A DNA stretch of 64,000 bases, taken from positions 248,001 through 312,000 of the forward strand of contig NW_019029023.1 in the NCBI RefSeq assembly GCF_002105155.1, in the 5' to 3' direction. Below the pieces are notes generated by a model, which saw only the letters and a program-made list of their open reading frames with translations, was not told the DNA's origin and ran no database searches. The translations under genes and the position numbers were made by a program. This DNA comes from Lobosporangium transversale (lineage: Eukaryota). Below are positions 7,205 through 64,000 of this stretch, piece after piece; position 1 is the stretch's first letter, and every line of letters starts with the position of its first letter.

Positions 7205-9611
7205 TTAAATTATACCTTGTTTAGCCCCTGTTCTGAGTATTTCTGATAACATCAGATCTACTTCCTCCCCAGTTAAATTCCAATACAGGTACAAACTTAT
7301 CAAAGTCGCGTTGGTCTTGAGCGCTTCTGACAATGCGAGAGCTCCTTCATTCCTAATTTTGTTCTTCCACAAGCCCAACGTGGTTAAAGTTGTGTTGGTT
7401 TTGACCTCTAACAGTGCCAGGGCCCCTTCTTTCCCAACAGACTTGCTCTCCAATTCCAAATTGATCAAGGTCATGTTGGCCTTGAGTGCCTCCGAAAGTG
7501 CGAGAGACCCTCCGTTCCCAAATGGGTAGTCGTTTGAGTACGCCTCCGCCCGATAATTGCTCCATAAGGAAGGTGTTCCAGAAGCCCAAACTGGTCAAAG
7601 TTGAGCTAGCCTTGAGCGCATTTAACAATACTAGGACCCCTTTCTTAATTAGGTTGAACCGCAAATCCAAAGTGATTAAAGTCGTATTAGTCTTTAGTAT
7701 CTCAGAGAATGCAAAGGCCCCTTCATTCCCAATTGAGTTGTTCGTCAAGACCAAAGCGGCCAAGGTCGCGTTGACCTTGAGTGCCTCCGATAATATAAGA
7801 GCTCCTTTATCCTCAATGTTGTTGAGATGCAAGTTCAAACAGGTCAATATCATGTTAGTCTTGAGTACCTCTGACAGTGCTGTAACTCCCTTCTTCCCAA
7901 TTGGATTGGTATGCAAATCTAAATATGTCAAAGTGGTATTGTTCCTGAGTGAATCTACAAGTACCCGAAAAGCACTACCTTCAATCCTTCGAGGTCTCAT
8001 CTCAAAGGATAATCGTTGAAGATGTGCCGGTTTTCTGCTTGGTAAATTGGAAAGTTCGATATGATCCGGAGATAGTACAATACTGATCGTTTCATTTTGC
8101 GGGACTCTATATTGCGTAGATATTGACTGTAGTCCCCTGGTAAAGCTCCCTTGAGAATCTCCAAGATCTAGTCAAAGAATCAATACACTTGATCTATCTA
8201 GTGCTTCCTCAAGTGCTTCAAGATCAGCTTTGCTCCATCCCCATTTAAGCGTGATATCCAACTCGTATACTTGCTTTGCATTGACCAAGGCATTATATTC
8301 TTCAGCCCTGGTTCTGGATCCCAATTTGTTGACCACTCCACCAAAGTGTGGGGCATACTTGCCACGGTTCACCTCCACAACATTTTTGAGCGCCATCTGT
8401 TCTCTCTCTCTCTATAATTCGAATGATAATGATGAGGATAAACCCATTTGACATGCCCTGTTTCTGTTGTTATTCTGTACAAGTTGTCAAGCTTGCTATC
8501 TTCATCATTAGTTTGAAGGAACGTTCTCACCTGACGGAGACCTGTTTCTTCAAGTAGTTCATAGTCATCAATTGTGTTAATGTTATTCAAGGCTGGATAC
8601 GCCTTGGAGAGCTCATTCAAGTGGTTGAGTGAATGATCAATACAGTTTTTGCGATTTGGGACTGGTGCAAGAGGGGCAGCCAGAGGTATTCCTACTTTGA
8701 GGCACTGTAAAAGGATGACCATGTGTTTCCCATACTGTTGAAAGAACTCTGTGTTGTTTCGGATATCATATCATTCATGATTAGCAATGTGGATTCGGTT
8801 CCGGTTATCTTTGCTTGTCTTTACAGAGTGATCCCCCACATTCACATAGGAAGTGAAGGCGGAACTCGTTCCTCAAGACATTCATTGGGTCCCAATTGGC
8901 GTGGTCGAGAGGTAAAATGATAAAGAGTTGAGAGATTGGATACTCGTGTAGCTCAAAGACCTGAACAAGGATAGCTTCAGCTTCCTTTTGGAGTATAGCA
9001 AGTCTGTCGAGCGCTTGCTCTTGCAAATTTTTCATCTCCTCCTGCATCGCAAATATCTTCTCATCCTTCTCCATAGCCTCCAATTGCAGCTTAATCATAT
9101 CTGATTATAGCTTAATCATTTCATTGCCCTATTTTCGGCTCTCATCAGCAACTCCTTAATCTCTTCGTACTGAGAGTTGGAGTTCTCGTTATTGTGAACA
9201 GTAAGAGATGAGTTGGAAGATTGAATAAGGTTGGATAATGACAATAGAGCGTCATGAAAGGCCAGATTTTTCGACTCTTTTGATATCGGCAAACGGGCGA
9301 TAGCGTTGCTGTTGCTGTTATTATTGTTGTAGTTGCAGGACTGCGTTTATCCTGTAATGACATCCAGGATCTTGTCAGGATAGAGCGCAATACGTGGAGG
9401 TTCAATCCTAATGGAGTAGAAAAAAAAGTCGTGCCAAATTGGGTTCTCTTCTCTTTATTTTCCTTTCCAGAGCAATTGATAAAACAAATATGCCTGTTGT
9501 CATCAGCGTCTAAAAGGAATGGGATGGGATCCCATCCACCTTGAATCGATGTGCATCCAGAAATACATCTACAATGTCTCGCAGAAATTGTTGGTATTGA
9601 GGTTCTGTCAT
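7205..9611 (-). pseudogene. LRR-family paralogue 1 (header + coiled coil + central domain + RNI-type LRRs), multiply frameshifted
   Basis: Starts ATGACAGAACCTCAATACC like its intact paralogues. Fragments LAILQKEAEAILVQVFELHEYP, RLHFLCEC, NLYRITTETGHVKWV and LRRs lie in five different ORFs. The first-intron donor reads GC. Confidence 0.85.
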
Positions 9612-10892
9612 TTCGGTAATAATTCGAGGGATGATGATAAGATGAATTCTTTTTCCATTTCTCTATTTTAAGTAAGAGATGTGAGTGATCTAATGTGACA
9701 GCTGGATGTTTTGCTCCTGATTCTTTGCTTTCATCTTCATCAAGGATCAATCTGGAATCTGTGCGAGACGCTAAGGGGGAACTCAAGGATAAAGCTCTTC
9801 CTTGGATACCTCGCTCATAATCAGAAACGAAAATGATTGTCTTTTATACAAAATAGATTTAGATCTTTTAAAGATGCATTTGGCTTAGTATCTATCCCAT
9901 TATGGTGTAATCGAAGGATAGAAAGAGCAATCCCTAGTCCACGCGCATACTTCAAACAGGACACAAACCCATGTATCCATATTGTATTTTTCTTTTTTTT
10001 TAAAAAAAATTCGTTCCTGTCGCTCCTGTCAATAAGAGAACCATTCACTATATAAAATCCTTTTAATTGATTCAAAACCTCGGATCCATCACATGGGCGA
10101 AGCACTGCACAATGTAGCCATATAATATATATTGTAAGCCAGTCACCTCATTTGTAAAAGATTAATCATCTTATTGCTCTATCTATACCCTTTATCCAAG
10201 AGTAATCCTAGTTTTTTAATTTCATTCAATTTTATTTTTTTCTTTTTCTCTTTTTTTAACAAACAGAGTTCGCACATGGACCAGTTGTGCTAAAGCCAAG
10301 ACGATCGATCATAGCCACATGCCACACCTTAGCGGACGGATAGGAGAGCTATCCTTTACAGTGAATCTTCCGGGAGACGTAGCCTTGAAGCGTGCTGTTC
10401 AATGACCTTAACAGCGTTCGTGTATTCATTATGGTACTCGAGCGAAACCCAAGCTGGTTCCTCTTTGTTAATTGGGGATCCAAAAATACTAGATAGTAAA
10501 TGGCAAAAATGCACAGGTTCATTGATCAGTCAAGTGCGGTGCGCTGTTATGGCTGTGCTGTTCATACTGATAGCTCAAGACGCGTTTTTTTATGGCTTGA
10601 CTTGACCTCTATACTCACCTCTCTCAATCGTATCATCAGACTTTAATCATAGCAGGAGGGCAAACCATTAATTGCTGGTCTCAATCAATGCATCCTGACG
10701 GGATAAATTTACAGCACTCTGGGATGAAAATACAGCCAGCGGATTCATGCAAGATCAAGCATTATTTTCCCAGCCCTGCCACTTCAAGAGGCGAAGCTGA
10801 AAAACAATCAACTAGCATCTCCTAACATTGAGAAATGAGACAGCTTTTTCTCTTTTCTTCATCTTGTCATCATCCCTTGAATCACCACCGAA

Positions 10893-13658
10893 ATGACAGA
10901 ACCTCAATACCAACAATTCCGATACAACAACGTCCTCGAGGAAGTTTGTATCAGAACTGCCTCCATCTCCACAAGCAATGGCAACTTGTCGTGCTATGTG
11001 ACCTTGCAAGACATTCGACAAGTGTTTCCAGGTGCGCACCGATTCAAACTAAATGGGCATCCTGTCCCTTTCCTTGCAGACCATAACGGCAACTGGTAAA
11101 TTATATATAATTATGGCGACTTTGTCAATTGCTCTGAAAAATAAAAAGAACCCAATTTGACAATTTGGCACGTCTTTTTTTCTAATAGGATCGAACCTTT
11201 GCGCATTGCATCCTATCCTGGCATGATTCTAGACGTCTTTGCGGAAGTATCACAGTCCAGTAGTGGCAACAGCGAAAGCAACAGTAGCAGCAATGCCGTT
11301 GTCTATTTGCCGACATCGATAGACTCGGTGAATCTGACTGCTCAGGATCCTTCTTTGCCTTCATCAAACTTGGTTCAAGCTTACAACCCATCTCTTATTG
11401 CTCAAAGGTTGGAAGAAATTAAAGAGTTGGCACTAGAGGGGATTAAACTGCATCATCAAGCCCTTGACAGACTTGCCATCCTTCAACAGAAAGCTGATGC
11501 TATCCTTGTCCAGACCTTTGAGCTACATGAGTATCCAATCCCTCGACTCTTTATCATTCTGCCTGTTGACAGCACCAACTGGGACCCGATGAATATCTTG
11601 AGGAACAAGGTTCGCCTTCACTTCCTATGTGAATGTGAGGATCGCTCTGAAAAGGCAAGCAAAGACAGCCAGAAGAACAAAACCCATCTTGCCAGACATG
11701 AAGGATATGAGATCCGAAACAGCACAGAGTTCTTCCAAAAGTATGGGAAATACATGATCATCCTTTTACAGTGCCTCAGCGTAGGGATGCCTTTGGCTGC
11801 CTCGCTTGGGTCAGTCCCAGATCTCAAAGCCGGTATTGATTATTCACTCGACTATATGAGAACACTTTCTGTTGAGTATCCGGCCCTGAAAGACATCAAC
11901 ACAATCGAGGACTATGAAGCACTTGAAGGAGCAGATCTCCGAGGACTGAGCAAATTCCTTCAAACCAATGATGAAAACAGGCAGCTTGGCAATTTGTACA
12001 GGACTACGACCGAAAGGGGGCATGTCAAATGGGTTTGTGTCGATCACTATCGCTCAACGTATAAAGAGAAAGAACAGAAATCGTTTGAAGATGTTGTGGC
12101 GATGAATGGAGGCAAATATGACTCACAGCTCGGTAAAGTGGTCATTGAGTTGGAATCTAGGATCAGAGCTAGAGAGTTCTTCGAAGCCTTGACCAAAGCT
12201 AAACATATTTACGAGTTGGAGATCACATTCAGCAAGGACTGGGATTGGACCAGGACTGATCTGGAAGCGCTGAAGAATGCACTAAGCGTATCGAGTGTAT
12301 CGATCCTTCGACTTGACCTTGGAGAATCTCAAGGAAGCATAGTCAGGAAACTACTTTCAACAAGGCATGAAAAACTTGTAGGCATCATAGAACTTAACAA
12401 TATGAAGACGATTCATGTTGTACTTCCTCCGGAAGCCAAACATCTTTCCAATCTACAAAGCGTAAAATCGTCACATCTTCACAAGTTATCCATTGGGATG
12501 AGGCCTCGAAGGATGAGAGCTAGTGAATTTCCACCGCTTATAAATTCACTCGAGGCTTTGGCCACTTTGGACTTAGCATCTAACTCGATTGGGAATAAAG
12601 AGTCCCTCGCACTTTCAAAGGCACTCAAGACAAACACCAGTCTGACCGATTTGGTCTTGAGTTACAATTCAATTGGGGATGAAGGAGCTCTGGCACTGTC
12701 AAAGGCACTCAAGACAAACTCCAGTCTGGCCAATTTGAACTTGATGAGCAACTCTATTGGGGATGAAGGAGCTCTGGCACTGTCAGAGGCACTCAAGACA
12801 AACTCCAGTCTGAGCATTTTAGATCTGCGAAGGAACTCAATTGGGAAGAAGGGGGGTCTGGCACTCATGGATACGCTCAACAGTGGCACGGCTTTAAGCA
12901 CTTTAGGTTTGTGGGGCAGCTTAGTTGGAAAAGGAGAGGTTCATGCGCTGTCAGAGGCACTCAAGACTAATACCAGTCTGACCAATTTGAACTTGTACGG
13001 CAACTCAATTGGGAAAGAAGGAGCTCTGGCACTGTCAGAGGCACTCAAGACAAACACCAGTCTGACCAATTTGAACTTATACAATAACTCAATTGGAGAT
13101 GAAGGAGCTCTGGCACTGTCAGAGGCACTCAAGACAAACACCAGTCTGACCATTTTGGACTTGAGTTGGAACTCAATTAGGAATGAAGGAGCTCTGGCAC
13201 TGTCAGAGGCACTCAAGACAAACTCCAGTCTGACCAATTTGAACTTGTACGGCAACTCAATTGGGAAAGAAGGAGCTCTGGCACTGTCAGAGGCACTCAG
13301 GACAAACACCAGTCTGGCCAATTTGAACTTGACGGACAACTCAATTAGGAATGAAGGAGCTCTGGCACTGTCAGAGGCACTCAAGACAAACACCAGTCTG
13401 ACCAATTTGAACTTACGATACAACTCAATTGGGAATGAAGGAGCTCTGGCACTGTCAGAGGCACTCAAGACAAACACCAGTCTGACCGGTTTGAACTTGT
13501 ACAATAACTCAATTAGGAATGAAGGAGCTCTGGCACTGTCAGAGGCACTCAAGACAAATACCAGTCTGACCGATTTGGACTTACGGTACAACTCTATTGG
13601 GGATGAAGAAGCTCTGGCACTGTCAGAGGCACTCAGGGCTTTAAAGGTTTCTGTATGA
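10893..13658 (+). CDS. LRR-family paralogue 2, intact: header + coiled coil + central domain + about 13 x 28-aa RNI-like LRRs (exons 10893-11095, 11189-13658)
   Basis: The MTEPQYQQFR ORF joins the 833-aa ORF through a 93-nt GT..AG intron (TG|G = W-IEPLRI). Repeats read LxxLxLxxNSIGxEGALALSEALKTNTS. Confidence 0.9.
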
Positions 13659-14519
13659 GGAATACTTTAATCGATAAGTAAATAACTCTGGTGCTGTTAA
13701 TGCCGCTTATTATTGGCTGGCGTTGATTTAGTTGGTTGGTTTGATCATTGAAGTAGTGATGAGGTCTTAGTGGTTACGGATAGTAGTTTGATTTGGATTA
13801 AAAGCTGACTTACGGCAGCTAAGCGTCCGTAGCAGCGCTGCTTTTTTTTTTTTTTCTTTTTTTTCTTTTTTGATCGATTCTTCCTCCCCTCGCTTGCTAA
13901 TGGCTCTAGCATGCGTGGATTATTGAAAGCTCATCCTTTTGTAGCCTCTCTCTAAAGGCAAACCAAATATGGCCATCAAATGCATTATAAAGACAGAGAG
14001 ACGTGTGAGCATCAAAGAAAAGTGTCCAAGGGAATTTGGGTTTTCTATTTATTAGCCCCAAGGGAAACTAAGAGAAAATAAGATGGGGAAATATCATCCC
14101 GTCATCAAAGGATGGGAACCACGAGTGTTCCCTACTCTTCAGTATACCCTAAAGAAACTTATAAACTGTACAGCAAGACCGGACGCTTGCTGAATCAGAT
14201 GCAAAGAGTACCAAAGAGGATATAAGTGCCAGAGACATCTAGAAGTGTGTGTGGCAGTCAAAGTAGGGTCCTAACGAAGGAGTAGGCTGTTGTGGGATGT
14301 CATCCCGGTAAGGACCACCTAAAGTTAGACAGAAGAGAACTAAAAGGCGATGTTCTCCACTGAGGCCATAATTGGTAGGAGTGAGGTCCTTTGGCCAGAA
14401 GCTTTATTACAAATGGTTGCAAAAAAGACACGCTGAATGGGTGGTCTCTAATTGAAGGGTCTACATAGAGCAACCTAATACATATTTTTTTTATCCATAC
14501 ATTTTTCAAAGCAGTTTTT

Positions 14520-14669
14520 CTTTTATGCTCATCTCTACGCCTGTGAAGCTCCAAGGTCCTCCTTGGCATATTTCTATAAGTCCTGTAATGAATGACTTTG
14601 TAATAAAAGAAAACAGAGACAATATATACTCACCATGAGAAATATATTACTCGTATATAATGAGTCCAG

Positions 14670-14730
<61 letters not shown>

Positions 14731-15083
14731 TATGGCTGTGAATCTTGAAGAATTCGACCTTCTGCTTTTTATTAGATTTGGCATAGCAACACTTAAAGTC
14801 CTATATCTTCTTACATGTTCATGCTACAGTCGTGATTGCATAGAATGTGTTTTATGCTGGAGACAGATATGAAGTCAAAGTGACTAGCCATCAAATGAAG
14901 ATGAAGGCTATTTTTCCAGTTCAGTTCTTCAGCGAATCTCCCAACAAACAATAAGCCCGATGCTAACAGATACCACAGAGCTGAGGTTACCCAATTGTAC
15001 ATTATTGGCGAGAAATAACCAAGAGCGGGGCAAATTTTGTAAAAATCCCTTCTAGTCTTATTGTGCCATACACCAACACACAA
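14520..15083 (-). mobile_element. Highly decayed Tc1-like transposase relic (second copy at about 40266-40800, +)
   Basis: YRNMPRRTLELHRRR resembles YESMPRRVEELHRKK of the intact Tc1 here. SSIKHILCNHD resembles SPIEHVWAYMD. The segments are collinear. Confidence 0.5.
14672..14731. repeat. (TTA)n microsatellite, about 20 units
   Basis: Direct reading. The duplicated copy at about 40619-40640 has only about 7 units. Confidence 0.9.
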
Positions 15084-15806
15084 AAAAATGAGTCCAAGGT
15101 AACCGATCAGTCAACTTTTCTTTTTTGCTACTTAGGAACCTATCTATGTATATAGGCACTGGCCATACTTGTAGTAAATAAAGCCCCCATCTATATACGC
15201 CAAAATTGTGTATGGTTTAATTTCAACTTGACCCCTTATTATGCCAGTTCAATATAGACTTTCATTAAACCTCTTGTGCCTCCATGACATCCTAGATAAA
15301 GACCTTTATCGCCTGAAGGAGCTAAGAAGGGGTCATTAGTGCTATACTATGTCCGATAGGGTAAATTCAGTAGTATTCAAAGCCAGCAGGATCAGGCGTC
15401 ATCGCAGGCGATGTACGATTCGAGAATGGGCGACACAAAACGCGTAGTGGCAGTAAATAAATTGGAAACAATGTTGATATTACTGCAAGTAAACAACAAT
15501 AACAACAACAGCATCTTATCTTCCATGAAGAGATCACCTTGAAGGGCCAACCAATCTGAGATCTCCCAGGAGGATCGACTCAGCTTCTGGATGTAGGAAG
15601 AAGCCTGGCGACTTGTGAAGTATTTCTTCCCACCAAAGGTATGTTGGTCCCTTAGGCTGCAGGCAGTAACTTTTCACTCATGTAGACAAAATGGAGCGGG
15701 AGAAAAAATTACACATGTCTCATTTCGCGCATTTTTATTTTAATTTTATTTTATTCTTTTTTTATACAGATAACGTAAAGTATATGTACCCAAAGCTGTG
15801 TCCTGT

Positions 15807-16311
15807 TTAGTGCCTGGTTCTGAGTGCCTCTGATAGAGCCAGGTATACTTCCTTCGCGATTGACATATGACTCAATTCCAACCTTGTCAAAGTGGTGTTG
15901 ATCTTGAGTACCTCTAAAAGTACGAGAGCTCCCTCATTCCCTACTGAGTTCCGAAACAAGTTCAAATTTGTCAAAGTCTTGTTGGTTTTGAGCGCCTCTG
16001 AGAATGCGATGGCCCCTCTGTTCCCTACTTTGTTGTCCCCCAAGCTCAAGTCTGTCAAGGCGGTGTTGACCTTGAGTGCCTCTGAGAGTGCGAGGGCTCC
16101 ATTCTTCCCAATCAAGTTACTCCCCAAGCCCAAACTTGTCAACGCCGTATTGATCTTGAGTGTTTCTGAAAGTGCTATGGCTCCTTCGTTCCCGATTGAG
16201 TTATTCCACAGGCTCAGATTTGTCAAAGCCTTGTTGGTCTTGAGCACTTCTGAGAGTGCGAAGACCCCTTCCTTGCCAATTGAGTTCCAAATCAAGTTCA
16301 AACTTGTCAGA
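15807..16311 (-). pseudogene. Orphan 3' LRR cassette (about 6 LRRs + stop, no N-terminal domains)
   Basis: LTSLNLIWNSIGKEG...LALSEALRTRH*. Upstream sequence is unrelated and has no ATG or header. Confidence 0.75.
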
Positions 16312-16957
16312 GTCTGGCGCGTAATTGCAGAATTTATGCCCTTCAGTTATCGCACTGGATCATCTCACCAATCGAAAGCTCTGGGATATGGGATCGATGC
16401 TGCTACCAGCCACCATCCCTTTGCATCATGCGAGTGATACCCTCAGTTTCACTCTGATATTATATTAATATATCAGCATTTCTATTGCAAGTTTTTTTTT
16501 TATTTTTATTTTTTTATTTTTTTTTATTTTTGGATAAATGCATTCTATACCCTTCCAAAAATAATCAGACCTCAATGGCGGGTATCTTCAGTCCTCGATA
16601 AATGGTAAAACCAGACCTCAATGATACAGTGGTCATCAAAAGTCATTCAATGATTTTGAATTTTTAACATTCTCATTCCTTTTCTTCATTCTCATCTAGC
16701 ATGTGGCTAGTATATTTGGGGTAGTGCATTTGTTCCCCACACCTCATGATTACTTTCATGTCTCATTCCTAATTATGACTTCATTGTGAAATAAAACCAA
16801 TTTCAATTTGACCTGTCTATTGAATGACTTTGCTGATTTTGAATGTTGATTGCAAAAAAAACTTTTTCACTTCTCTTTTTTCTACCAAGATTACCTTCAG
16901 CTATATCTTCATACACCTCTACTTACAATTAACATTCCACATCGCTTAGTATTTATT

Positions 16958-17977
16958 ATGAGGAGGCTTTCTATGGGAAAGGTACAAAATGCTCAGGCCT
17001 TACTTCGACAAGGGAAGTCTACAAGCGAAGTGGCAAGGCAACTTGGTATCTCTATTTCATCGGCAATAAGGATCAGGAGGGACGTCAAGGACAATATTCC
17101 TAAACCCAGAATGGGCAGACCCTCATTGGTTTCCCCTGCTACCAAGAGGGTAATTGCACGCGAGGTTGATACGGGGAAACTTAGATCCATTCTGGCAGTT
17201 CAAGAATACATCAGATCGAGCCATGGAGTGCATGTCAGTGTAGAGACTGCCCGACGCTATGTAAAATCAGAGGGTTTGAAAAACTATGTCCGCCCATTCA
17301 AGCCTAGGCTGACAAAAATGCAGATTGCGAAAAGGAAGAATTTTGCCCTCAACCACCTTGACTGGACTGTTGATGACTGGAAGCGAGTGATGTTCTCGGA
17401 CGAAAAGCTTTTTGTAAGGCTAGGGTCCTTAGGAGGAAGAACACAATATAGGCGACCCGGCCACAGGTCTTTAGAAGATCGAGATGTTAGAGAGGGATCA
17501 AGGGGAGCACATAACAAACCTATGTGGTGGGGCTGTATCACTTATCATGGTATAGGCGATGGTTGCAGGATCCCTGTCACAGTTGATTCCTCTTTATATG
17601 TTGATGTTCTACAAGATTATGTCCTCGGCTCATGGAAGTGGTATGGCCAGGACCCTGAAAAGTTAATTTTTCAGCAGGACAATGCAAGTGTTCATACGAG
17701 TAGGATGGTTAAAGAGTTCTTTATTAAGTCACACATTACCACTTTGGAGTGGCCTCCAAATTTTCCTGACCTCAGCCCTATCGAGCATGTATGGGCCTAC
17801 ATGGATCATCGACTCAAGGGATATGAGAAGGTACCAAAGGATCTGGATGAACTATGGGAAAGACTACAGGATATCTGGACATCTATTCCACCTGACTTCC
17901 TTCATGAGCTATATGAAAGTATGCCACGAAGGGTAGAGGAGCTTCATCGCAAGAAAGGAGGTCGTACACATTACTGA
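16958..17977 (+). CDS. Tc1-family DD34E transposase (339 aa)
   Basis: N-terminal HTH (STSEVARQLGISISSAIRI), FSDEK, FQQDNASVH and PDLSPIEHVW. I count 34 residues between the second D and the E. Confidence 0.93.
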   Translation: MRRLSMGKVQNAQALLRQGKSTSEVARQLGISISSAIRIRRDVKDNIPKPRMGRPSLVSPATKRVIAREVDTGKLRSILAVQEYIRSSHGVHVSVETARRYVKSEGLKNYVRPFKPRLTKMQIAKRKNFALNHLDWTVDDWKRVMFSDEKLFVRLGSLGGRTQYRRPGHRSLEDRDVREGSRGAHNKPMWWGCITYHGIGDGCRIPVTVDSSLYVDVLQDYVLGSWKWYGQDPEKLIFQQDNASVHTSRMVKEFFIKSHITTLEWPPNFPDLSPIEHVWAYMDHRLKGYEKVPKDLDELWERLQDIWTSIPPDFLHELYESMPRRVEELHRKKGGRTHY

Positions 17978-18004
17978 AGAACAGAAAAAAAAAAACAAAT
18001 AAAG

Positions 18005-18102
18005 CAGTGCTCCTATTCGGTTTAAAATTTTGTCAATTATGATGTTTCAGATTAAAAAAATAAATATCAATTGACAAAATTTTAAACCGAATAGGAGCAC
18101 TG
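18005..18102. repeat. Perfect 34-bp inverted repeat with 30-nt spacer in the Tc1 3' region
   Basis: CAGTGCTCCTATTCGGTTTAAAATTTTGTCAATT at 18005-18038 and its exact reverse complement at 18069-18102. Confidence 0.9.
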
Positions 18103-18611
18103 AAATAAAGCAAAGCTCCTGTTTTTCTTCAAATGTCATTCAATGAGATGCCAATAATTGGCATTCATCTAAATTTTCAATTAGCAACAGGAGCTCATTG
18201 ACATTGTAGTAGGCGTGACATTGTCGATGGTCGAACTCGCTACGTAAGTTTCATTAGCGACAAGCAAGATCAAATTGGAGAAAGGAATGAGAATGTCGAA
18301 ATTCCTAATTCATTGAATGATTTTTGATGACCACTGTATGTGAAACAATCATAGTTTTCGTATGCTCGAGTAAAACCATTCGTCTTCTGCATATGAATAT
18401 TTGACCTGATTTCAGCTTGTTGTGTACTTTTATTACTTGCGGAGATCCTACTTAAGATGGCTTCCTTCAAGCGTTCCATGCTCACTCAACAATGGCTTTT
18501 ATGAAGCAAGCAATGTGCGGATTATGGGCAAGGGACTACATTTTGTTATCCAAGGAGAAGGATTAAAAACCAACGTTACTGTGGGTCTTTTGGTTGCCGC
18601 AAGACAGTTGT

Positions 18612-21600
18612 TTATTTGTAATAAACTACGTATATTTCCCTTAACCACTCAACACACGACCAGACAATGTGGGCCCATACCAGGCATAGGGCTCCACGGA
18701 TAATGCTCAAGGAAGGGCCAAAGCGATATTTGGCCTGTGCACCCTTGTCAACGGAGATTGGAGTGTTGTCCCCTAGTTTTAAAGTGGTCAAAGTAGGACT
18801 GAACTTGAGCGCCTCAGCCAGTGCCAAAGCCCCTTCCATCCTAATCGGGTTTCGTTCCAAGCCCAAAGTGCCCAAAGTTGCGTTGACCTTGAGCGCCTCT
18901 GACAGCGCCAAAGCTCCCTCATTTCCAATTGAGTTGCGATGCAACTTCAAGGTCGTCAAAGTCGTGTTAAGCTTGAGCGCCTCTGCTAATGCCAAAGCTC
19001 CTTCATCCCCAATTGAGTTCCAATCCAAGTCCAAAACGCTCAAAGCCGTGTTGGTCTTGAGTGCCCACGATAATGCCAGAGATCCTTCATTTCCAACTGA
19101 ATTCTCTCTTAAACTCAAATACCTCAAAGTTATGTTAGACTTGAGTGCCTTTGAGAGGGCTATAGCTCCTTCATTCCCAATTGAGTTGAGCCACAGGTCC
19201 AAAGATACCAAAGTCGTGTTAGACTTGAGTGCCTCTGATAATGCCAGGGCCCCTTCATCTCCAATTGAGTTCCAACTCAAGTCCAAGATAGTCAAAGTCA
19301 CGTTGACCTTGAGCGCCTCTGACAGTGCTAGAGCTCCTGCTTTTCTAATTGAGTTACGATTCAAGTCCAAAGTGGTCAAAGCCGTGTTTATTTTGAGCGC
19401 CTCTGACAGTTCCAGAGCTCCTCCATCCCCAATCGAATTGCGCTCCAAGCCCAGAGTGGACAACGTCGTGTTAACTTTGAGTGCCTCTGACAGGGCCAGA
19501 ACCCCTTCAACTCCGATTGAGTTCCAACTCAAGTTCAGGGTAGTCAAAGTTGTATTAACTTTGAGAACTTTCGACAGTGCGAGAGCTCCTTCTTTCCCGA
19601 CTGAATTACAGCTTAGGTTCAAGGCGGTCAAGGTCGTGTTAGTCTTGAGTGCTTCTGACAGCGCCAGAGCTCCTCCCTTCCCGATTGAGTTCCATGTCAA
19701 GTTCAAAGTGGTTAAAGTCGTGTTGTCCTTGAGTGCCTCTGCCAGTGCCAGAGATTGTTCGTTTCCAATTGAATTCCAACCCAAGTCCAAGATGGTCAAA
19801 ACCGTGAAGACCTTGAGCGACTCCACAAGTACTTGGAAATAACTGGCTCCAATGCCTCGAGGCCTAATCTCAAAGGAAAATTTTTGAAGGTGTGGCAGTC
19901 TTTTGGGCTGTAAAATAGAAAGCTGTAGGAGGTCCTGGGATAAGACTATATGAATTCTTTTCAGATTGTTAAGTCCAATGATGCGAGTAAGTATTATTCT
20001 ATAATATGTGGGTGTTGAGAATGCTTTCCTGTTGTTACTATCTTGACATTGGTCGAGCTCAAGTCGAAGGGTTGATACACTTGAAGCCTTTAGTGCATTT
20101 CCAAATGCTTCAAGCTCAATCTCGGTCCAATCCCAGCTGAATGTAATATCCAACTCATGAACACATCTGACATTTCTCAGAGTACTGAAGAAATCCTCAG
20201 CGCCAGCCCTGGAGCGCAATATAATAGTCGCTTTATCAAGGTTTGGGTCGTATTTGCCATTATACACCTTGATTGAATTTGCAAATACTTCCTGCTCTTT
20301 TTCTTTGAATGTCGAACGATAGTGATCGACACAAATCCATTTGACATGGCCTGTTTCGGTCGTGATCCTGTACAAGTTGCCAAGTTGTTTGTCTTCATTG
20401 TTGATCTGAAGAAAAGTGCCTAGCTGCTGAAGATCAGGTCCTTCAAGTCCTCTGTAGCCTTCAGCTATGTTGATGTCGCTCAGGCTCGGATACTCAATAG
20501 AGAGTGCTTTCATATACTGAAGCGAATAATCAATCTTAGCATTTGCCAGCCTTGGGACAGATGCCAAAGAAGCGGACGACAGTATCCTCAACTTGAGCCA
20601 TTCTAAAAGGACAAGCATGTGCTTTCCATACTTGCGGAAGAACTCCGTGCTATTTCGGATCTCATATCCATCATGTTGGACAATATGGATTTGGTTCTGG
20701 CTGCCCTTGCTAGGAGTTACGATGTGGTCGTCACATTCGCAGAGGAATTGAAGGCGGACCCTGTTTTTCAAGGTATTTGTTAGATCCCACTTTATATGTT
20801 CAACAGGCAGAAGTATAAACAGTCGAGGAAATAGAGAGTTTTGTAACTCAAAAGTCTGGAAGAGGATAGTATTAACATGCTTTTGGAGGATGGCAAGCCT
20901 ATTGAAAGCTTGCTGTTGCAAGCCAATGATCATTTCATCCTTCTCTTTAGCCTCTAACCGTAGTTTCAGCATCTCGTCGTCCTTTTGTTTGGCTTCCAGT
21001 TGCAGTTTCAACACCTCCAGTTGCAGTTTGAGCATCCTGTCATTCTCCTCAGCTTTCAATTGCAGTTTAGCCATCTCTGATTGCAATTTAAGCATCTCGT
21101 TGTCCTTCTCTTTCACTTGCAAGAGCAACTCTTTAATCTGCTCAAAGCCAGGATCGTCCATATCGATTTGCGCGACATTATGAGCTATATGAGATGAGTC
21201 CGAAGATTGTAAAGAAGAGTCCTGAAGAGTCGAATTTTCCGACCATCTCGATGTTGGCGAGCGGACGGCGGAGTTGTTTTGGCAGCTGCTCTGCGGTATT
21301 TCTGTAATGACATCCAGGACCTTGTTAGGGTAAAATGCAATACATGGAGGTTCGATTCTAAAGGAACAAATAATAAACAAACAAAAAATCATGTCAAACT
21401 GAGTTCCCCTTATTTCTCTTTGATAAGGGACCGTGAAAATGGTATACCTGTGACCAGTAGAGTGAACAAGGAATGGGATGGACTGTCCATCCAATTTGAA
21501 TCGCTGTGCATCTGGAAACAGCTCTCGAATGTCTTCCAAGCGCACATGGCAGAGCGAGTTGCCATTGCCTGCATCGGTAGAAGCAGTTCTGACACAAACC

Positions 21601-21653
21601 TCTTCAATGATGTTCTCAGTCCTTCGGAATTGTTGGAATTGAGGTCGTGTCAT
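18612..21653 (-). CDS. LRR-family paralogue 3: long coiled coil, about 13 LRRs, aberrant non-LRR tail (90-nt intron 21358-21447)
   Basis: MTRPQFQQFR header, PRLFILLP, RLQFLCEC, LGNLYRITTETGHVKWICVDHY and LRRs. The last repeat breaks off after LKLGDN at about 18765. Confidence 0.85.
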   Translation of the reverse strand: MTRPQFQQFRRTENIIEEVCVRTASTDAGNGNSLCHVRLEDIRELFPDAQRFKLDGQSIPFLVHSTGHRYTIFTVPYQREIRGTQFDMIFCLFIICSFRIEPPCIAFYPNKVLDVITEIPQSSCQNNSAVRSPTSRWSENSTLQDSSLQSSDSSHIAHNVAQIDMDDPGFEQIKELLLQVKEKDNEMLKLQSEMAKLQLKAEENDRMLKLQLEVLKLQLEAKQKDDEMLKLRLEAKEKDEMIIGLQQQAFNRLAILQKHVNTILFQTFELQNSLFPRLFILLPVEHIKWDLTNTLKNRVRLQFLCECDDHIVTPSKGSQNQIHIVQHDGYEIRNSTEFFRKYGKHMLVLLEWLKLRILSSASLASVPRLANAKIDYSLQYMKALSIEYPSLSDINIAEGYRGLEGPDLQQLGTFLQINNEDKQLGNLYRITTETGHVKWICVDHYRSTFKEKEQEVFANSIKVYNGKYDPNLDKATIILRSRAGAEDFFSTLRNVRCVHELDITFSWDWTEIELEAFGNALKASSVSTLRLELDQCQDSNNRKAFSTPTYYRIILTRIIGLNNLKRIHIVLSQDLLQLSILQPKRLPHLQKFSFEIRPRGIGASYFQVLVESLKVFTVLTILDLGWNSIGNEQSLALAEALKDNTTLTTLNLTWNSIGKGGALALSEALKTNTTLTALNLSCNSVGKEGALALSKVLKVNTTLTTLNLSWNSIGVEGVLALSEALKVNTTLSTLGLERNSIGDGGALELSEALKINTALTTLDLNRNSIRKAGALALSEALKVNVTLTILDLSWNSIGDEGALALSEALKSNTTLVSLDLWLNSIGNEGAIALSKALKSNITLRYLSLRENSVGNEGSLALSWALKTNTALSVLDLDWNSIGDEGALALAEALKLNTTLTTLKLHRNSIGNEGALALSEALKVNATLGTLGLERNPIRMEGALALAEALKFSPTLTTLKLGDNTPISVDKGAQAKYRFGPSLSIIRGALCLVWAHIVWSCVEWLREIYVVYYK

Positions 21654-24741: not shown

Positions 24742-24774
<33 letters not shown>

Positions 24775-35585: not shown

Positions 35586-35623
<38 letters not shown>

Positions 35624-37744: not shown

Positions 37745-39049
37745 ACTACCCTTAACATCGTTATGATGTCATCTCAATTAAAGTTTTAGCCAATCATAAT
37801 TTAAGATTTTTTGGTGCAATTTTTCCCTCACATAGTAAAATAGTCCATCTTTTTTCTTTATGAACTTGGAAAGAAAAAGTCATACCGATAAAAACCCATC
37901 GTAACTTTGTAGAGAATTGGCAAACGAATAACATTACGATGAGTTTCCTTGTCTAGCTTTCATGGAGAGTGAGAACATACATTTCCCTCGTGGCCTATTA
38001 TTTTCCCTAAAAAAGTGTGTGACTAGGAGGAATACACTGTAGCAATTTGGCCTGACACTATTGCTGTTAGAGACAAAGACTTGAGCCTGCAATTAACCGA
38101 CGTTTTATAGCCTCTAATGGCAATCATTTTTAGGTTGGTATGGGGATTCGACAACATATCTATCGAAAAAGGAGCCGGAAGGAGTAGCAAAAAACAGAGG
38201 CCAGGCACTTGGTGTTTTTTATCTTTAGGCTGGAAGAAGAGGAAATAAAAAAATAGTAAAAGTTGCTAATGCGCAAAGGAGTAGAGGCTAGTGAATGGTG
38301 GATAGAGTGCATCGTATAGCTTGATATCTCTGATTTATTTTTTCTTACTTGGTATGCAATAGACGGTTATTTTCTGCTAGTAGAAAGTACAGAGAACTGG
38401 ATCTGTTCTGTCCATGAGTTGATGAAAGCTAAGAGCGTAAATTTGCCCGTTTGACGGTCCAAGGGATAAACTAAGCGAATAAGTCCAAAGAAGTATAAAG
38501 GTCTTGGTCTATGCGCCACTGGCTCGTATTCCTTAACTTTTTTTTTTTTTTTTTTTTTTTCTTTTGGAATGCATACAGATTAGTATCATGAGCAATATCG
38601 AAGGACCCCAACAACTATACTTTTGACGCTGCCCAGTATAAGGTCTAGTTATTACTGGAAGGCATACGCTTGGGACCTTGAGCGACCTCTGAAGGAACCC
38701 ATCGATTACATCATGCATCAAACCTTGATGGTATCTATCATTGAGGTCTGGTTTTACCATTAATCGAGGATTGGAGATACCTACCATTGAGGTCTGATTA
38801 TTTTTGGAAGGGTATAGAATGCATTTATCCAAAAATAAAAAAAAATAAAAAAATAAAAATAAAAAAAAACTTGCAATAGAAATGCTGATATATTAATATA
38901 ATATCAGAGTGAAACTGAGGGTATCACTCGCATGATGCAAAGGGATGGTGGCTGGTAGCAGCATCGATCCCATATCCCAGAGCTTTCGATTGGTGAGATG
39001 ATCCAGTGCGATAACTGAAGGGCATAAATTCTGCAATTACGCGCCAGAC

Positions 39050-39553
39050 TCTGACAAGTTTGAACTTGATTTGGAACTCAATTGGCAAGGAAGGGGTCTT
39101 CGCACTCTCAGAAGTGCTCAAGACCAACAAGGTTTTGACAAATCTGAGCCTGTGGAATAACTCAATGGGGAACGAAGGAGCCCTAGCACTTTCAGAAACA
39201 CTCAAGATCAATACGGTGTTGACAAGTTTGGGCTTGGGGAGTAACTTGATTGGGAAGAAAGGAGCCCTCGCACTCTCAGAGGCACTCAAGGTCAACACCG
39301 CCTTGACAGACTTGAGCTTGGGGACAACAAAGTAGGGAACAGAGGGACCATCGCATTCTCAGAGGCGCTCAAAACCAACAAGACTTTGACGAATTTGAAC
39401 TTGTTTCGGAACTCAATGGGGAATGAGGGAGCTCTCGTACTTTTAGAGGTACTCAAGATCAACACCACTTTGGCAAGGTTGGAATTGAGTCATATGTCAA
39501 TCGCAAAGGAAGTATACCTGGCTCTATCAGAGGCACTCAGAACCAGGCACTAA
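39050..39553 (+). pseudogene. Orphan 3' LRR cassette, copy of 15807-16311 with a 1-bp deletion
   Basis: Near-identical to 15807-16311. TTGGGGAC here vs TTGGGGGAC in arm A at about 39320. Confidence 0.75.
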
Positions 39554-42874: not shown

Positions 42875-45846
42875 TCATACAGAAACCTTTAAAGCCCTGT
42901 TTTTCTTGAGTACCTCTGACAGTGCCAGAGCTCCTTCTTCCCCAATTGAGTTGCCGTACAAGTCCAAATCGGTCAGACTGGTGTTTGTCTTGAGTGCCTC
43001 TGACAGCGCCAGAGCTCCTTCTTTCCCAATTGAGTTGCCGTACAAGTTCAAATTGGTCAGACTGGAGTTTGTCTTGAGTGCCTCTGACAGTGCCAGAGCT
43101 CCTTCCTTCCCAATTGAGTTCCTCTCCAAGTTCAAATGGGTCAGACTGGCATTAGTCTTGAGTGCCTCTGACAGTGCCAGAGCTCCTTCATTCCCAATTG
43201 AGTTGTACTCCAAGTTCAAATGGGTCAGACTGGTGTTTGTCTTGAGTGCCTCTGACAGTGCCAGAGCTCCTTCTTCCCCAATAGAGTTGTAACTCAAGTC
43301 CAAATTGGTCAGACTGGAGTTTGTCTTGAGTGCCTCTGACAGTGCCAGAGCTCCTTCTTTCCCAATTGAGTTGCTCTCCAAGTTCAAAATGGTCAGACTG
43401 GAGTTTGTCTTGAGTGCCTCTGACAGTGCCAGAGCTCCTTCCTTCCCAATTGAGTTCCTCTCCAAGTTCAAAATGGTCAGACTGGTGTTTGTCTTGAGTG
43501 CCTCTGACAGTGCCAGAGCTCCTTCTTTCCCAATTGAGTTGCTCTCCAAGTTCAAATTGGTCAGACTGGAGTTTGTCTTGAGTGCCTCTGACAGTGCCAG
43601 AGCTCCTTCCTTCCCAATTGAGTTCCTCTCCAAGTCCAAATCGGTCAGACTGGAGTTTGTCTTGAGTACCTCTGCCAGTACCAGAGCTCCTTCATTCCCA
43701 ATAAAGTTGTATCGTAAGTTCATATTGGTCAGACTGGTGTTTGACTTGAGTGCCTCTGACAGCGCATGAACCTCTCCTTTTCCAACTAAGCTGCCCACAA
43801 ACCTAAAGTGCTTAAAGCCGTGCCACTGTTGAGCGTATCCATGAGTGCCAGACCCCCCTTCTTCCCAATTGAGTTGCTTTGCAGATCTAAAATGCTCAGA
43901 CTGGAGTTTGTCTTGAGTGCCTCTGACAGTGCCAGAGCTCCTTCATCCCCAATAGAGTTGCTCATCAAGTTCAAATTGGCCAGACTGGAGTTTGTCTTGA
44001 GTGCCTCTGACAGTGCCAGAGCTCCTTCATCCCCAATTGAATTGTAACTCAAGTCCAAATTGGTCAAACTGGTGTTTGTCTTGAGTACTTTTGAAAGTGC
44101 GAGGGCCTCTTTATTCCCAATCGAGTTAGATGCTAAGTCCAAAGTGGCCAAAGCCTCGAGTGAATTTATAAGCGGTGGAAATTCACTAGCTCTCATCCTT
44201 CGAGGCCTCATCCCAATGGATAACTTGTGAAGATGTGACGATTTTACGCTTTGTAGATTGGAAAGATGTTTGGCTTCCGGAGGAAGTACAACATGAATCG
44301 TCTTCATATTGTTAAGTTCTATGATGCCTACAAGTTTTTCATGCCTTGTTGAAAGTAGTTTCCTGACTATGCTTCCTTGAGATTCTCCAAGGTCAAGTCG
44401 AAGGATCGATACACTCGATACGCTTAGTGCATTCTTCAGCGCTTCCAGATCAGTCCTGGTCCAATCCCAGTCCTTGCTGAATGTGATCTCCAACTCGTAA
44501 ATATGTTTAGCTTTGGTCAAGGCTTCGAAGAACTCTCTAGCTGTGATCCTGGATTTCAGCTCAATGACCACTTTACCGAGCTGTGAGTCATATTTGCCTC
44601 CATTCATCGCCACAACATCTTCAAACGATTTCTGTTCTTTCTCTTTATACGTTGAGCGATAGTGATCGACACAAACCCATTTGACATGCCCCCTTTCGGT
44701 CGTAGTCCTGTACAAGTTGCCAAGCTGCCTGTTTTCATCATTGGTTTGAAGGAATGTGCTCAGCCGTCGGAGATCTGCTCCTTCAAGTCCCTCATAGTCA
44801 TCCATTGTGTTGAAGTCATTCAAGGCTGGGTTTTCCTTTGTGAGTTCATCCAAATAGTCGATCGAATATTTAATACCGGCATCGATTAGGTTCGAGGCTG
44901 GTGTCAAAGAAGAACCTGGAGATGTTCCCATCCCCAACTTGAGTCCTTGTAATAAGATGATCATGTATTTCCCATATTTTTGAAAGAACTCTGTGCTGTT
45001 TCGGATCTCATATCCTTCATGTCTGGCAAGATGGGTTTTATTCTTCTGGCTGTTCTTGCTTGCCTTTTCAGAGCGATCCTCACATTCACATAAGAAGTGA
45101 AGGCGAACCTTGTTCCTCAAGATATTCATCGGATCCCAGTTGGTGTTGTCAACAGGCAGAATGATAAAGAGTCGAGGGATTGGATACTCGTGTAGCTCAA
45201 AGGTCTGGACAAGGATAGCATCGGCTTTCTGTTGAAGGATGGCAAGTCTGTCAAGGGTTTGATGGTGCAGTTTAATCCCCTCTTGAAGCAACACTTTAAT
45301 CTCCCCTTGAAGCAACACTTTAATCTCTTTAATATCATCAGTAAGAGATGGGTTGTGAGCTTGAACCAAGTTTGATATAGGCAAAGGAGGGTTCTGAGGG
45401 ACTACATTCTCAGCCTCTCTCGATGTCGGCAAATAGACAACGGCATTGCTGCTACTGTTGCTTTCGCTGTTGCCACTACTGGACTGTGATACTTCCGCAA
45501 AGACGTCCAGAATCATGCCAGGATAGGATGCAATGCGCAAAGGCTCGATCCTATTAGAAAAAAAGACGTGCCAAATTGTCAAATTGGGTTCTTTTTATTT
45601 TTCAGAGCAATTGACAAAGTCGCCATAATTATAAATAATTTACCAGGTGCCGTTATGGTCTGCAAGGAATGGAACAGGATGCCCATCAAGTTTGAATCGG
45701 AGCGCACCTGGAAACACTTGTTGAATGTCTTGCAAAGTCACACAGTACGACAAGTTGCCATTGCTTGTGGAGATGGGGGCAGTTCTGACACAAACTTCCT
45801 CAATGAGGTTGTTGTATCGGAATTGTTGGTATTGAGGTTCTGTCAT
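42875..45846 (-). CDS. LRR-family paralogue 4, about 15 LRRs; one 1-bp frameshift at about 43795 (real or assembly error); intron 45551-45643
   Basis: Sister of 10893-13658. The 68-aa, 598-aa and 307-aa ORFs join via a 93-nt intron and by restoring one G (TGGGCAGC here vs TGGGGCAGC in the sister). Confidence 0.8.
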
Positions 45847-63448: not shown

Positions 63449-64000
63449 ATGACATGATCTCAATACCAATAATTTCGAAAAGCCAACAATGACATCATTG
63501 AAAAAGTTTGTGTAAGAACTGCCTCTGCTTCCGGAGGTAATGACGGCAATTCATTCTACGTGACTTTACAAGACGTTCGAGACGTGTTTCCTGATGCACA
63601 CCGATTCATGTCGGGGGGAGATCCCATCCCATTCCTTATAGAGCCTGATGGCAGCAGGTATCTTATTTTATTATAATGCCTTATCAAATGTTCTAGAAAA
63701 GAAAAGAAAAAAAAAATGTGAGAACTCAATTAACTGCGTCTTTTTTTTTTTTTTTTTTTTTTCCTTCCTATTTCGTTATATTAGAATTGAACCTCCACGC
63801 ATTGCGTTCTACCCTGACAAGGTTCTGGATGTCATTGCAGAAGTACCACAGTCCTGCAATTGCAACAGCAACAGCAACAGTAACAGTAGCAGCAACAGCA
63901 ATACTGTCGTCCTTTTGCCAACCTCAAAAGAGTCAAAAAACTTGACCTTTCAGGACCTTCTTTTGGCATTATCCAACTTTATCCAATCTTCCAGCTCATC
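63449..64000 (+). pseudogene. LRR-family paralogue 5, 5' part only (cut by window end), with nonsense codons
   Basis: Same leader (CCGAGATGAC). It reads MT*SQYQ*FRK..IEKVCVRTAS..YVTLQDVRDVFPDAHRF..PIPFL, then intron 63658-63784, then IEPPRIAFYPDKVLDV. Confidence 0.85.

What the first reader, a model, noticed from the sequence alone, without database searches (positions are those of the whole stretch)
12945..13635. Hypervariable LRR array with near-identical 84-bp frameworks: candidate diversifying fungal LRR receptor system
Seen: each 28-aa repeat is an 84-bp unit whose framework (GAAGGAGCTCTGGCACTGTCAGAGGCACTCAAGACAAAC) is almost invariant, even at silent sites. Variation is concentrated in the x positions of LxxLxLxxN plus the residues after NSI. 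The sister gene (42905-43765) has near-identical flanks but a different array. Here there are 8 distal units with the pre-Asn dipeptides YG, YN, SW, YG, TD, RY, YN, RY. The sister has 10 units with RY, ER, ES, ER, ES, SY, EY, ER, YG, YG. Established: these x positions form the concave ligand-binding beta-sheet of LRRs. High internal repeat conservation plus hypervariable codons is the signature of fungal non-self receptors such as Podospora HET-E/HET-D WD40 arrays, but characterised fungal NLRs use WD40/TPR/ANK rather than LRR. Inference: these are LRR-based, NTPase-less recognition proteins whose specificity is rewritten by unequal crossover or repeat-unit conversion.
Basis: partly seen in the sequence, partly recalled or inferred. 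Interest (0 to 1): 0.9.

Follow-up and report, generated by a model that had tools for sequence, protein, structure and literature searches.

The report
Shuffled fungal LRR candidate sensor family
Soil fungi of the family Mortierellaceae carry a large gene family whose leucine-rich repeats share nearly identical DNA but differ at the residues predicted to contact a ligand, joined to a domain shared with bacterial Roco proteins; these are likely recombination-diversified sensors of foreign molecules, a receptor type that published surveys did not find in fungi.

Summary
Gene A (890 aa) ends in 8 near-identical 84-bp LRR units and sister gene B in 10, with the dipeptides listed. (1) B is frameshifted upstream of its distal array, and short-read contigs hold that form. 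(2) Both genes belong to a Mortierellaceae-wide family (794 hits; 7 members or remnants in this window). The architecture is a predicted beta-grasp header, a coiled coil, a ~190-aa Cys/His domain and an RI-like LRR array, with no NTPase. (3) That middle domain has no Pfam or PDB match but is homologous to the domain after COR in bacterial LRR-Roc-COR proteins (reciprocal HMMs: 120 of 120 and 189 of 191). Recombination is shown within arrays and between paralogs. Across 72 arrays, homogenisation largely spares the strand positions (index 0.07-0.09 versus 0.27). A strict dN/dS above 1 is not established, and expression, ligand and variation among isolates are untested. Best reading (0.55): a GTPase-less, Roco-related intracellular non-self sensor family diversified by repeat exchange. 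It works like the Podospora HIC NLRs and Ectocarpus ROCOs but belongs to neither family.

The parts
10893..11095 (+). Gene A exon 1: most of the ~85-aa N-terminal header, predicted beta-grasp (TDP-43 N-terminal/PB1/CIDE-N-like)
   Evidence: ATG and GT donor read; Atlas on the matching header of P0002 (feature score 0.92, TM 0.62-0.67 to TDP-43 N-terminal models, under the tool's bar for naming a family); no Pfam hit
11096..11188 (+). Intron of gene A (GT..AG), inferred
   Evidence: the same junction is spliced in database protein P0002; the frame adds up to 890 aa
11424..11531 (+). Predicted coiled-coil helix leading into the middle domain
   Evidence: Helix 2-37 of the model
11493..12059 (+). 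Middle domain (~190 aa), homologous to the post-COR C-terminal domain of bacterial Roco proteins; near-invariant Cys/His set (C139, H158, H270, C275, H278 in P0001 numbering), candidate metal site
   Evidence: model pLDDT 79, pTM 0.73
11754..11963 (+). Mosaic block inside the middle domain (helical hairpin), exchanged among paralogs
   Evidence: A is 60% identical to B here but 97% to P0003 and P0006; B is 85-89% identical to P0004 and P0005
12060..12548 (+). Linker and degenerate LRR-like region
   Evidence: No Pfam hit in the local copy; nearly identical in A and B
12549..12968 (+). Five proximal 28-aa LRR units, nearly the same in A and B
12969..13640 (+). Gene A distal array: 8 high-internal-conservation 84-bp RI-like LRR units; hypervariable codons 6, 8, 10, 11, 16; stop at 13656-13658
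42875..45846 (-). Gene B, inverted duplicate of A; 1-nt deletion near 43793 puts the distal array out of frame
   Evidence: the deletion form is held by short-read contigs of runs X1 and X5, the in-frame form by X2 and X3
42902..43741 (-). Gene B distal array: 10 units
18612..21653 (-). Gene C: full-architecture paralog with an older, silent-site-diverged array of 12 units
7208..9617 (-). Gene F: paralog with frame changes and in-frame stops, likely a pseudogene
15807..16346 (-). D: LRR-only remnant with no header or middle domain detected
39042..39540 (+). E: inverted duplicate of D, with a frame change
63449..64000 (+). G: header and start of another paralog, cut by the window end
10205..16626 (.). 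Left arm of the inverted duplication (right arm 38736-46558)

Best explanation
This is one member of a large Mortierellaceae gene family that joins a predicted beta-grasp header, a predicted coiled coil and a domain homologous to the post-COR domain of bacterial Roco proteins to an LRR array reshuffled by recombination, and it likely acts as a GTPase-less intracellular sensor of foreign molecules. SHOWN: architecture without an NTPase; homology of the middle domain; four-gamete incompatibility among units; near-identical units shared between A and B; a block swapped among paralogs; weak homogenisation of the strand positions compared with other tolerant positions. INFERRED: unequal crossover or conversion seeded in the identical 36-nt framework changes unit number and order. 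Selection for diversity keeps several different strand cassettes in each array, and the concave face binds a microbial or competitor molecule (endobacteria such as Mycoavidus or Mollicutes-related symbionts are candidates). SPECULATIVE: binding relieves autoinhibition, the header and coiled coil cluster the proteins in place of nucleotide-driven assembly, and the Cys/His middle domain relays or executes the response, as domains in the post-COR slot are predicted to do in bacteria.
For: Observation statistics. Family: 794 hits, with every named one of the 120 listed from Mortierellaceae. 72 of 121 proteins have 4 or more tandem units, 26 of them with framework identity of 0.8 or more; positions 10 and 11 are the most variable (3.6-3.7 bits). 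Homogenisation index 0.27 (bootstrap 0.22-0.31) at 7 tolerant non-strand positions versus 0.066 (0.04-0.09) at positions 10-11 and 0.09 at 6, 8, 10, 11; Trp x7.9, Tyr x3.5, Arg x2.8 at positions 10-11; no hydrophobic N-terminus in 111 of 111 (crude test). Minimum-change nonsynonymous rate at strand positions is about 3 times the unit-wide silent rate, p 0.003. Middle domain: hhalign probability 98.2, E 4.8e-14 over 194 columns to a protein with COR-A and COR-B; 120 of 120 bacterial and 189 of 191 fungal proteins hit reciprocally at E<1e-3, reversed control best E 2.5; 29 of 32 long relatives scanned carry Roc or COR and one carries a weak SIR2-like match. PMC8195603 section 15 describes the post-COR position as a variable effector slot in predicted counter-invader systems. 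Clustered genes, remnants and an adjacent transposon indicate birth-and-death evolution.
Against: Silent changes are also enriched in codons 6-16 (8 versus 3, p 0.006), and the local rates at strand positions are kN 1.53 versus kS 1.23, so old retained cassettes explain the pattern as well as accelerated substitution does. In gene C (pN 0.54, pS 0.62) and in both arrays of L079 the strand positions do not exceed silent divergence. Framework and dipeptide identity are positively correlated (rho 0.36, p 0.002). B is frameshifted, and D, E and F are broken. Only 1 of 73 metagenome loci held canonical arrays; the 10 of 71 loci read from one assembly end in a degenerate solenoid instead. Proteins in the family tests are related, so the bootstrap overstates independence. 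The header assignment is a single weak-to-moderate Atlas result. Bacterial Roco effector roles are themselves predictions.
Confidence: 0.55

Rival explanations
1. The proteins are outward-directed, Crinkler-like conflict effectors: the ubiquitin-like header would serve delivery or processing, and the variable LRR face would bind targets in competitors, prey or symbionts rather than sense intruders.
For: The header is predicted beta-grasp, and Crinkler N-termini belong to the ubiquitin clan (PMC9815663 passages). A Crinkler-domain ORF lies in the same window. Similar LRRs occur in the bacterial GALA protein. Diversifying binding faces fit an offensive role equally well.
Against: The header does not match PF20147, and a header profile does not hit the Crinkler ORF. 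No nuclease, kinase or other toxin domain was detected. No hydrophobic N-terminus in 111 of 111, although Crinkler proteins often lack one (recalled).
Confidence: 0.18
2. Neutral turnover: an expanding, largely dispensable family in which concerted evolution homogenises the framework, the solvent-exposed positions are merely unconstrained, and diverged cassettes persist because mismatches block conversion there.
For: Local kN is close to local kS, and silent changes cluster in the variable block; pN is below pS in older arrays; 4 of 7 members in the window are broken; framework kN/kS in the young arrays is about 0.8.
Against: Other tolerant positions are homogenised 3-4 times more than positions 10-11 across 72 arrays from many genera. 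Arrays with framework identity up to 0.96 keep dipeptide identity near 0.1. The Cys/His set and LRR core are near-invariant. Gene C keeps a strongly purified framework (pN 0.15, pS 0.50).
Confidence: 0.15
3. The proteins are substrate adaptors for protein degradation: the LRR face would capture foreign or selfish-element proteins and the ubiquitin-like header would hand them to a ligase or the proteasome.
For: Beta-grasp header plus a variable substrate-binding solenoid; a ubiquitin-family model is among the structural neighbours (TM 0.52).
Against: The best header neighbours are TDP-43 N-terminal/PB1/CIDE-N types; no F-box, RING or BTB family hit; this reading leaves the Roco-related domain unexplained.
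Confidence: 0.1
4. The differences between the arrays are assembly artefacts.
For: Arrays of 84-bp units are hard to assemble, and the arrays themselves were not checked against reads.
Against: All 18 distal units are distinct (pairwise distances 1-18 nt) and stay in frame; the same pattern appears in 72 proteins from many assemblies; the B deletion is held by short-read contigs.
Confidence: 0.02

Closest known systems
Podospora HNWD/HIC NLRs (HET-E, HET-D, HET-R)
   Same: Near-identical repeats with a few hypervariable positions, repeat exchange within and between genes, association with transposons (PMC13449251 passages and section 12; PMC4986451 passages).
   Different: LRR rather than WD40/TPR/ANK; no NACHT or NB-ARC; no HET, HeLo or amyloid effector detected; Mucoromycota rather than Ascomycota; function untested.
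Bacterial LRR-Roc-COR (AP-GTPase) predicted conflict systems
   Same: Shares the unnamed post-COR domain and the coiled region before it; variable LRRs; one bacterial Roco found here has near-identical 24-aa LRR units (L001).
   Different: Roc and COR absent; domain order reversed (domain first, LRR last); 28-aa RI-like units; added beta-grasp header. Fungal and bacterial domains form separate groups on a long branch, so neither direction nor a recent transfer is shown.
Ectocarpus ROCO LRR-GTPases
   Same: Candidate immune receptors with shuffled LRRs and positively selected concave residues; the paper notes an unnamed post-COR domain (PMC3341825 abstract, sections 12 and 22).
   Different: There each repeat is an exon and the GTPase is present; here the array is intronless and GTPase-less. 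Whether their post-COR domain is the same domain could not be checked.
Tetrahymena 90-bp-exon LRR genes
   Same: Lineage-specific LRR expansion by unequal crossing over near mobile elements (PMC6564038 abstract).
   Different: Exon arrays with phase-2 introns there; intronless 84-bp units here.
RI-like LRR proteins (ribonuclease inhibitor, NOD2, NLRP, Ralstonia GALA)
   Same: 28-residue LRR_6 units; sequence matches down to E 1e-49.
   Different: Only the repeats match; none shares the N-terminal domains.

Membership tests
Fungal NLR (STAND) | Central NACHT or NB-ARC NTPase | tested here: not met
   No such Pfam family in A, B, C or 8 other homologs; no Walker-A pattern in 121 of 121 proteins
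Fungal NLR (STAND) | C-terminal superstructure-forming repeats | tested here: met
   LRR_6 arrays
Fungal NLR (STAND) | N-terminal cell-death effector or amyloid motif | tested here: inconclusive
   No Pfam match for header or middle domain; amyloid motifs not tested
HIC repeat receptors (works-like) | High internal repeat conservation with hypervariable positions | tested here: met
HIC repeat receptors (works-like) | Repeat exchange within and between genes | tested here: met
   106 of 171 site pairs incompatible; units A4 and B9 differ by 2 nt; mosaic block. Recurrent mutation could add to the incompatibility count
HIC repeat receptors (works-like) | Positive selection on variable codons | tested here: inconclusive
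   About 3 against the unit-wide silent rate, about 1.2 against the local rate; below 1 in older arrays
HIC repeat receptors (works-like) | Repeat-number polymorphism among isolates | not tested
   No read or allele data on the arrays were obtained
Roco proteins | Roc GTPase plus COR tandem | tested here: not met
   No Roc or COR Pfam hit in the fungal proteins, while the same library detects them in L001 and L007
Roco proteins | Post-COR C-terminal domain (accessory, not defining) | tested here: met
RI-like LRR class | 28-residue period with strand-loop-helix units | tested here: met
   strands at unit positions 6-9 and helix at 16-28 in the confident tail of an otherwise poor model
Crinkler/CR effectors | Crinkler N-terminal domain PF20147 | tested here: not met
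   No hit on exon 1 or on P0002
Crinkler/CR effectors | C-terminal enzymatic toxin domain | tested here: not met
   The C-terminus is LRR only
TDP-43 N-terminal/PB1/CIDE-N type beta-grasp | Beta-grasp fold | tested here: inconclusive
   Atlas features 0.92 and TM 0.62-0.67, under the bar for naming a family; my own single-sequence model of the header was unusable
TDP-43 N-terminal/PB1/CIDE-N type beta-grasp | Head-to-tail self-association | not tested
   Property recalled from knowledge of those domains
Exon-shuffling LRR genes (Ectocarpus, Tetrahymena) | One repeat per exon | tested here: not met
   The array lies in one 837-codon open frame

The most novel reading that the evidence does not exclude
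Mortierellaceae have an LRR-based immune receptor repertoire of tens to over a hundred genes per genome, built from a bacterial Roco conflict module that lost its GTPase. Specificity is rewritten by cassette exchange between identical 84-bp frameworks, activation runs by header-driven polymerisation instead of nucleotide exchange, and the unnamed Cys/His domain is a new signalling or death module shared by multicellular bacteria and fungi, possibly policing endohyphal bacteria.
Probability: 0.3. Interest if true: 0.9.

Novelty: new variant of a known kind. Interest (0 to 1): 0.72.

Why it matters
Published surveys report no LRR pattern-recognition receptors in fungi (PMC2939053 abstract) and no LRRs among fungal NLRs (PMC4986451 passages). 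A diversifying LRR family in Mortierellaceae would overturn that for early-diverging fungi, which are the lineage that hosts endobacteria. It makes the question of how such fungi recognise bacteria testable with defined genes and defined residues. It also ties an uncharacterised domain from at least 955 sequence clusters, mostly Roco proteins where checked, to a eukaryotic family, giving two systems in which to find its function, and suggests an NTPase-free receptor design.

Tried and rejected
No whole genome was held, so there is no genome-wide unit tree. The middle domain gave no match in Pfam, NCBIfam or PADLOC, the Atlas, Foldseek PDB or viral or VIA-align wide (best Z 4.5); this does not show a new fold. 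Pattern scans for it found nothing in genome contigs, plasmids or viral contigs. A profile search found it in 1 of 401 Planctomycetota genomes (loose first look, so not absence). Homodimer prediction of coiled coil plus middle domain with zinc gave no answer, which is evidence neither way. The single-sequence fold of P0004 had mean pLDDT 35 and is usable only in the last ~60 residues. No RNA holder was listed in the run search; run X5 is only guessed to be RNA. The arrays were not checked against reads. DNA-level replication in metagenome loci failed for lack of young arrays (2 arrays in 73 loci). A pore-forming hairpin reading is not supported: 14 of 58 fungal and 3 of 60 bacterial domains reach hydropathy 1.6. 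Recent transfer from the bacteria sampled is not supported by the tree (quick IQ-TREE on 29 of 58 fungal and 30 of 60 bacterial rows). One 12-nt cassette shared by unit A3 and two gene C units was judged too weak, because it consists of common codons. Three look-ups of earlier scan findings returned nothing. Zhang et al. 2016 on CR proteins is not held, and the Ectocarpus supplementary figure could not be read.
Full report
OBSERVATION. The window is intron-containing eukaryotic DNA. The closest named proteins are filed under Lobosporangium transversale and other Mortierellaceae. One of them, P0002, matches gene B (tblastn 94.5% over residues 1-535 across the intron). Period-84 arrays lie at 12582-13635 and 42899-44127. 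The 8 distal units of A and the 10 of B carry exactly the dipeptides reported. Codons 17-28 are letter-identical in 12 of 18 units, mean unit identity is 0.886, and framework silent divergence is 0.064 against 0.50 in paralog C. Of 118 differences from consensus, 53 are in codons 10-11, 14 in codon 16 and 10 in codon 6.

A and B are arms of an inverted duplication, 10205-16626 versus 38736-46558. One arm ends exactly at the TA of a Tc1/mariner element at 16627-18336, and the mirrored arm lacks the element. B has a 1-nt deletion near 43793 that puts its distal array out of frame. Short-read contigs of runs X1 and X5 hold the deletion form, and those of X2 and X3 the in-frame form. The deletion is therefore not a long-read error. 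X1 or X5 may be the source of this DNA, and because A and B are otherwise identical at this spot, strain polymorphism cannot be told from a collapsed A/B bubble. The window holds 7 members or remnants: A and C intact, B frameshifted, F with stops and frame changes, D and E LRR-only, and G cut by the window end.

ANATOMY. Gene A has one inferred intron (11096-11188) and 890 codons. In order: (1) An ~85-aa header, found in 94 of 111 full-start homologs. The Atlas likens it to TDP-43 N-terminal, PB1 and CIDE-N beta-grasp domains (score 0.92; TM 0.62-0.67; under the bar for naming a family; shuffled proteins reach 0.9 in 4-10 of 100). (2) A predicted coiled coil. (3) A ~190-aa middle domain that folds confidently (pLDDT 79). 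(4) A degenerate LRR-like region, 5 proximal units and the distal array. There is no NTPase: Pfam shows LRR families only, and none of 121 proteins has a Walker-A pattern. None of 111 has a hydrophobic N-terminus by a crude window test. In the confident tail of an otherwise poor model, unit positions 6-9 form the strand and 16-28 the helix. That positions 6, 8, 10 and 11 line the concave face follows from known RI-like LRR geometry (recalled) and parallels PMC3341825 section 22; it was not computed here.

THE MIDDLE DOMAIN. It has no match in the family or structure libraries. A profile of 37 fungal sequences hit the C-terminus of a Planctomycetota protein at E 5.6e-11. That protein is LRR-Roc-COR, and the match lies after COR-B (hhalign 98.2, E 4.8e-14, 194 columns). 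Searching with the bacterial domain returned 135 proteins; of the 120 listed, all but one carry Roc or COR families, with names from Nostoc, Planctomycetota, Chloroflexota, Poribacteria and Sumerlaeota. Reciprocal HMMs hit 120 of 120 bacterial and 189 of 191 fungal proteins at E<1e-3, with the match ending within 20 residues of the bacterial C-terminus; the reversed control reached only E 2.5. C139, H158, H270, C275 and H278 are conserved in 90-100% of both groups; a metal site is my inference. The domain spans 955 clusters at 50% identity. Of 32 long ones chosen from the best 150, 29 carry Roc or COR; of the other 3, one has a weak SIR2-like N-terminus (E 0.004, below cut-off) and two have no family. 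So the domain is mobile, and could be an adaptor as well as an effector. PMC8195603 section 15 describes the post-COR position as holding at least 24 different effector or effector-associated domains in predicted counter-invader systems. In the first places I saw of its source data, several Nostoc entries have no named domain there; I could not match them to my proteins. A quick tree separates fungal and bacterial domains by a long branch, so direction and timing are open.

RECOMBINATION. 106 of 171 informative site pairs among the 18 units show four gametes, and units A4 and B9 differ by 2 nt, less than A4 differs from any other unit of A. Recurrent mutation may contribute to the count. Outside the repeats, residues 181-250 of A are 60% identical to B but 97% to P0003 and P0006, while B is 85-89% identical to P0004 and P0005; the neighbouring segments of A and B are 98-100% identical. 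Exchange between paralogs is thus shown.

SELECTION. For: minimum-change nonsynonymous rate at positions 5, 6, 8, 10, 11 is about 3 times the unit-wide silent rate (p 0.003), and about 5 times at 10-11. Of 121 proteins, 72 have 4 or more tandem units (602 units) and 26 have framework identity of 0.8 or more, these counts including A and B; dipeptide identity is mostly 0.1-0.3. The homogenisation index is 0.27 at seven tolerant non-strand positions, versus 0.066 at 10-11 and 0.09 at 6, 8, 10, 11; positions 5, 15 and 16 (0.11, 0.05, 0.19) were left out of both groups. Trp, Tyr and Arg are enriched at 10-11 relative to the whole proteins. Against: silent changes also cluster in codons 6-16 (p 0.006) and local kN/kS is about 1.2. 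Gene C and two arrays of L079 show pN below pS at these positions. Framework and dipeptide identity correlate (rho 0.36). The data show old, diverse cassettes resisting homogenisation, which balancing selection predicts; they do not prove accelerated substitution.

FAMILY RANGE. 794 homologs were found among 7998 scored candidates, plus 70 short ones. A metagenome scan gave 280 stretches; 71 of the 73 loci kept come from one assembly. The 10 of those 71 that I read keep the coiled coil and middle domain (header seen where the locus reaches it) but end in a degenerate solenoid, and only L079 had canonical arrays. The high-conservation arrays are therefore a subfamily trait.

MECHANISM. Most likely (0.55) an intracellular non-self sensor: recombination in the identical framework re-deals strand cassettes, the concave face binds a foreign ligand, and header and coiled coil cluster the Roco-related domain without a nucleotide switch. 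The first step is shown, ligand binding is inferred, and activation is speculative. Rivals: delivered Crinkler-like effector (0.18), neutral turnover (0.15), degradation adaptor (0.10), artefact (0.02).

KNOWN AND NEW. It works like the Podospora HIC NLRs and Ectocarpus ROCOs but fails the defining NTPase test of both. Six literature searches on Mortierella, Lobosporangium, Mortierellaceae or Mucoromycota with LRR, NLR, Crinkler or Roco terms surfaced no description of this architecture; the library lacks most subscription papers. Caveats: newer Pfam families PF27087 and PF27089 mark many homologs and could not be named here; PMC3341825 section 12 mentions an unnamed post-COR domain whose supplementary figure I could not read; Zhang et al. 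2016 was not available. Papers seen: PMC3341825 abstract, sections 12 and 22, partial supplement search; PMC13449251 passages and section 12; PMC4986451, PMC7159879, PMC10507103, PMC9815663, PMC10197012, PMC11378527 passages; PMC8195603 passages, section 15 and the first places of one supplement; PMC2939053 and PMC6564038 abstracts and outlines.

VERDICT. A real feature and a new variant of a known kind; interest 0.72. The sequence evidence for a recombination-diversified binding surface and for the Roco link is strong. Function is untested.

Noticed in passing
window 16627-18336: Tc1/mariner element with CAGTG ends, TA on both sides and a 375-aa transposase frame (DDE_3, HTH_Tnp_Tc3_2). One arm of the inverted duplication ends exactly at its left TA and the mirrored arm lacks it, suggesting a transposon-mediated rearrangement.
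   Followed up: partly
window 34848-37266 (+): ORF with a Crinkler N-terminal domain (PF20147, E 9e-6) followed by frames without a Pfam hit; possibly a CR-type gene inside the duplicated region's spacer.
   Followed up: no
window 28596-29096 and 33353-33871: A second inverted repeat pair, 76% identical over about 535 bases, overlapping unannotated frames.
   Followed up: no
L001 3608-6595 (+): Planctomycetota LRR-Roc-COR protein with near-identical 24-aa LRR units varying at the two residues before Asn, the same high-conservation pattern in a bacterium.
   Followed up: partly
P0267, P0388, P0418: GTPase-less proteins carrying the post-COR domain at the C-terminus: one behind a weak SIR2-like domain, two behind an unnamed domain.
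   Followed up: partly
L010-L078, L080, L082: At least 71 loci of this family in one metagenome assembly, often in tandem; those read end in degenerate solenoids rather than canonical arrays.
   Followed up: partly
P0010, P0023, P0048, P0066, P0094: Homologs with two copies of the middle domain in one predicted protein; may be true duplications or fused gene models.
   Followed up: no
window 677-3617, 23581-25712, 26661-27592, 58026-61001 (+): Ordinary genes judged by eye from translations (labels recalled, not searched): septin-like GTPase with ankyrin repeats, Prp31-like splicing factor, phosphatidylinositol transfer protein, Ser/Thr kinase.
   Followed up: no
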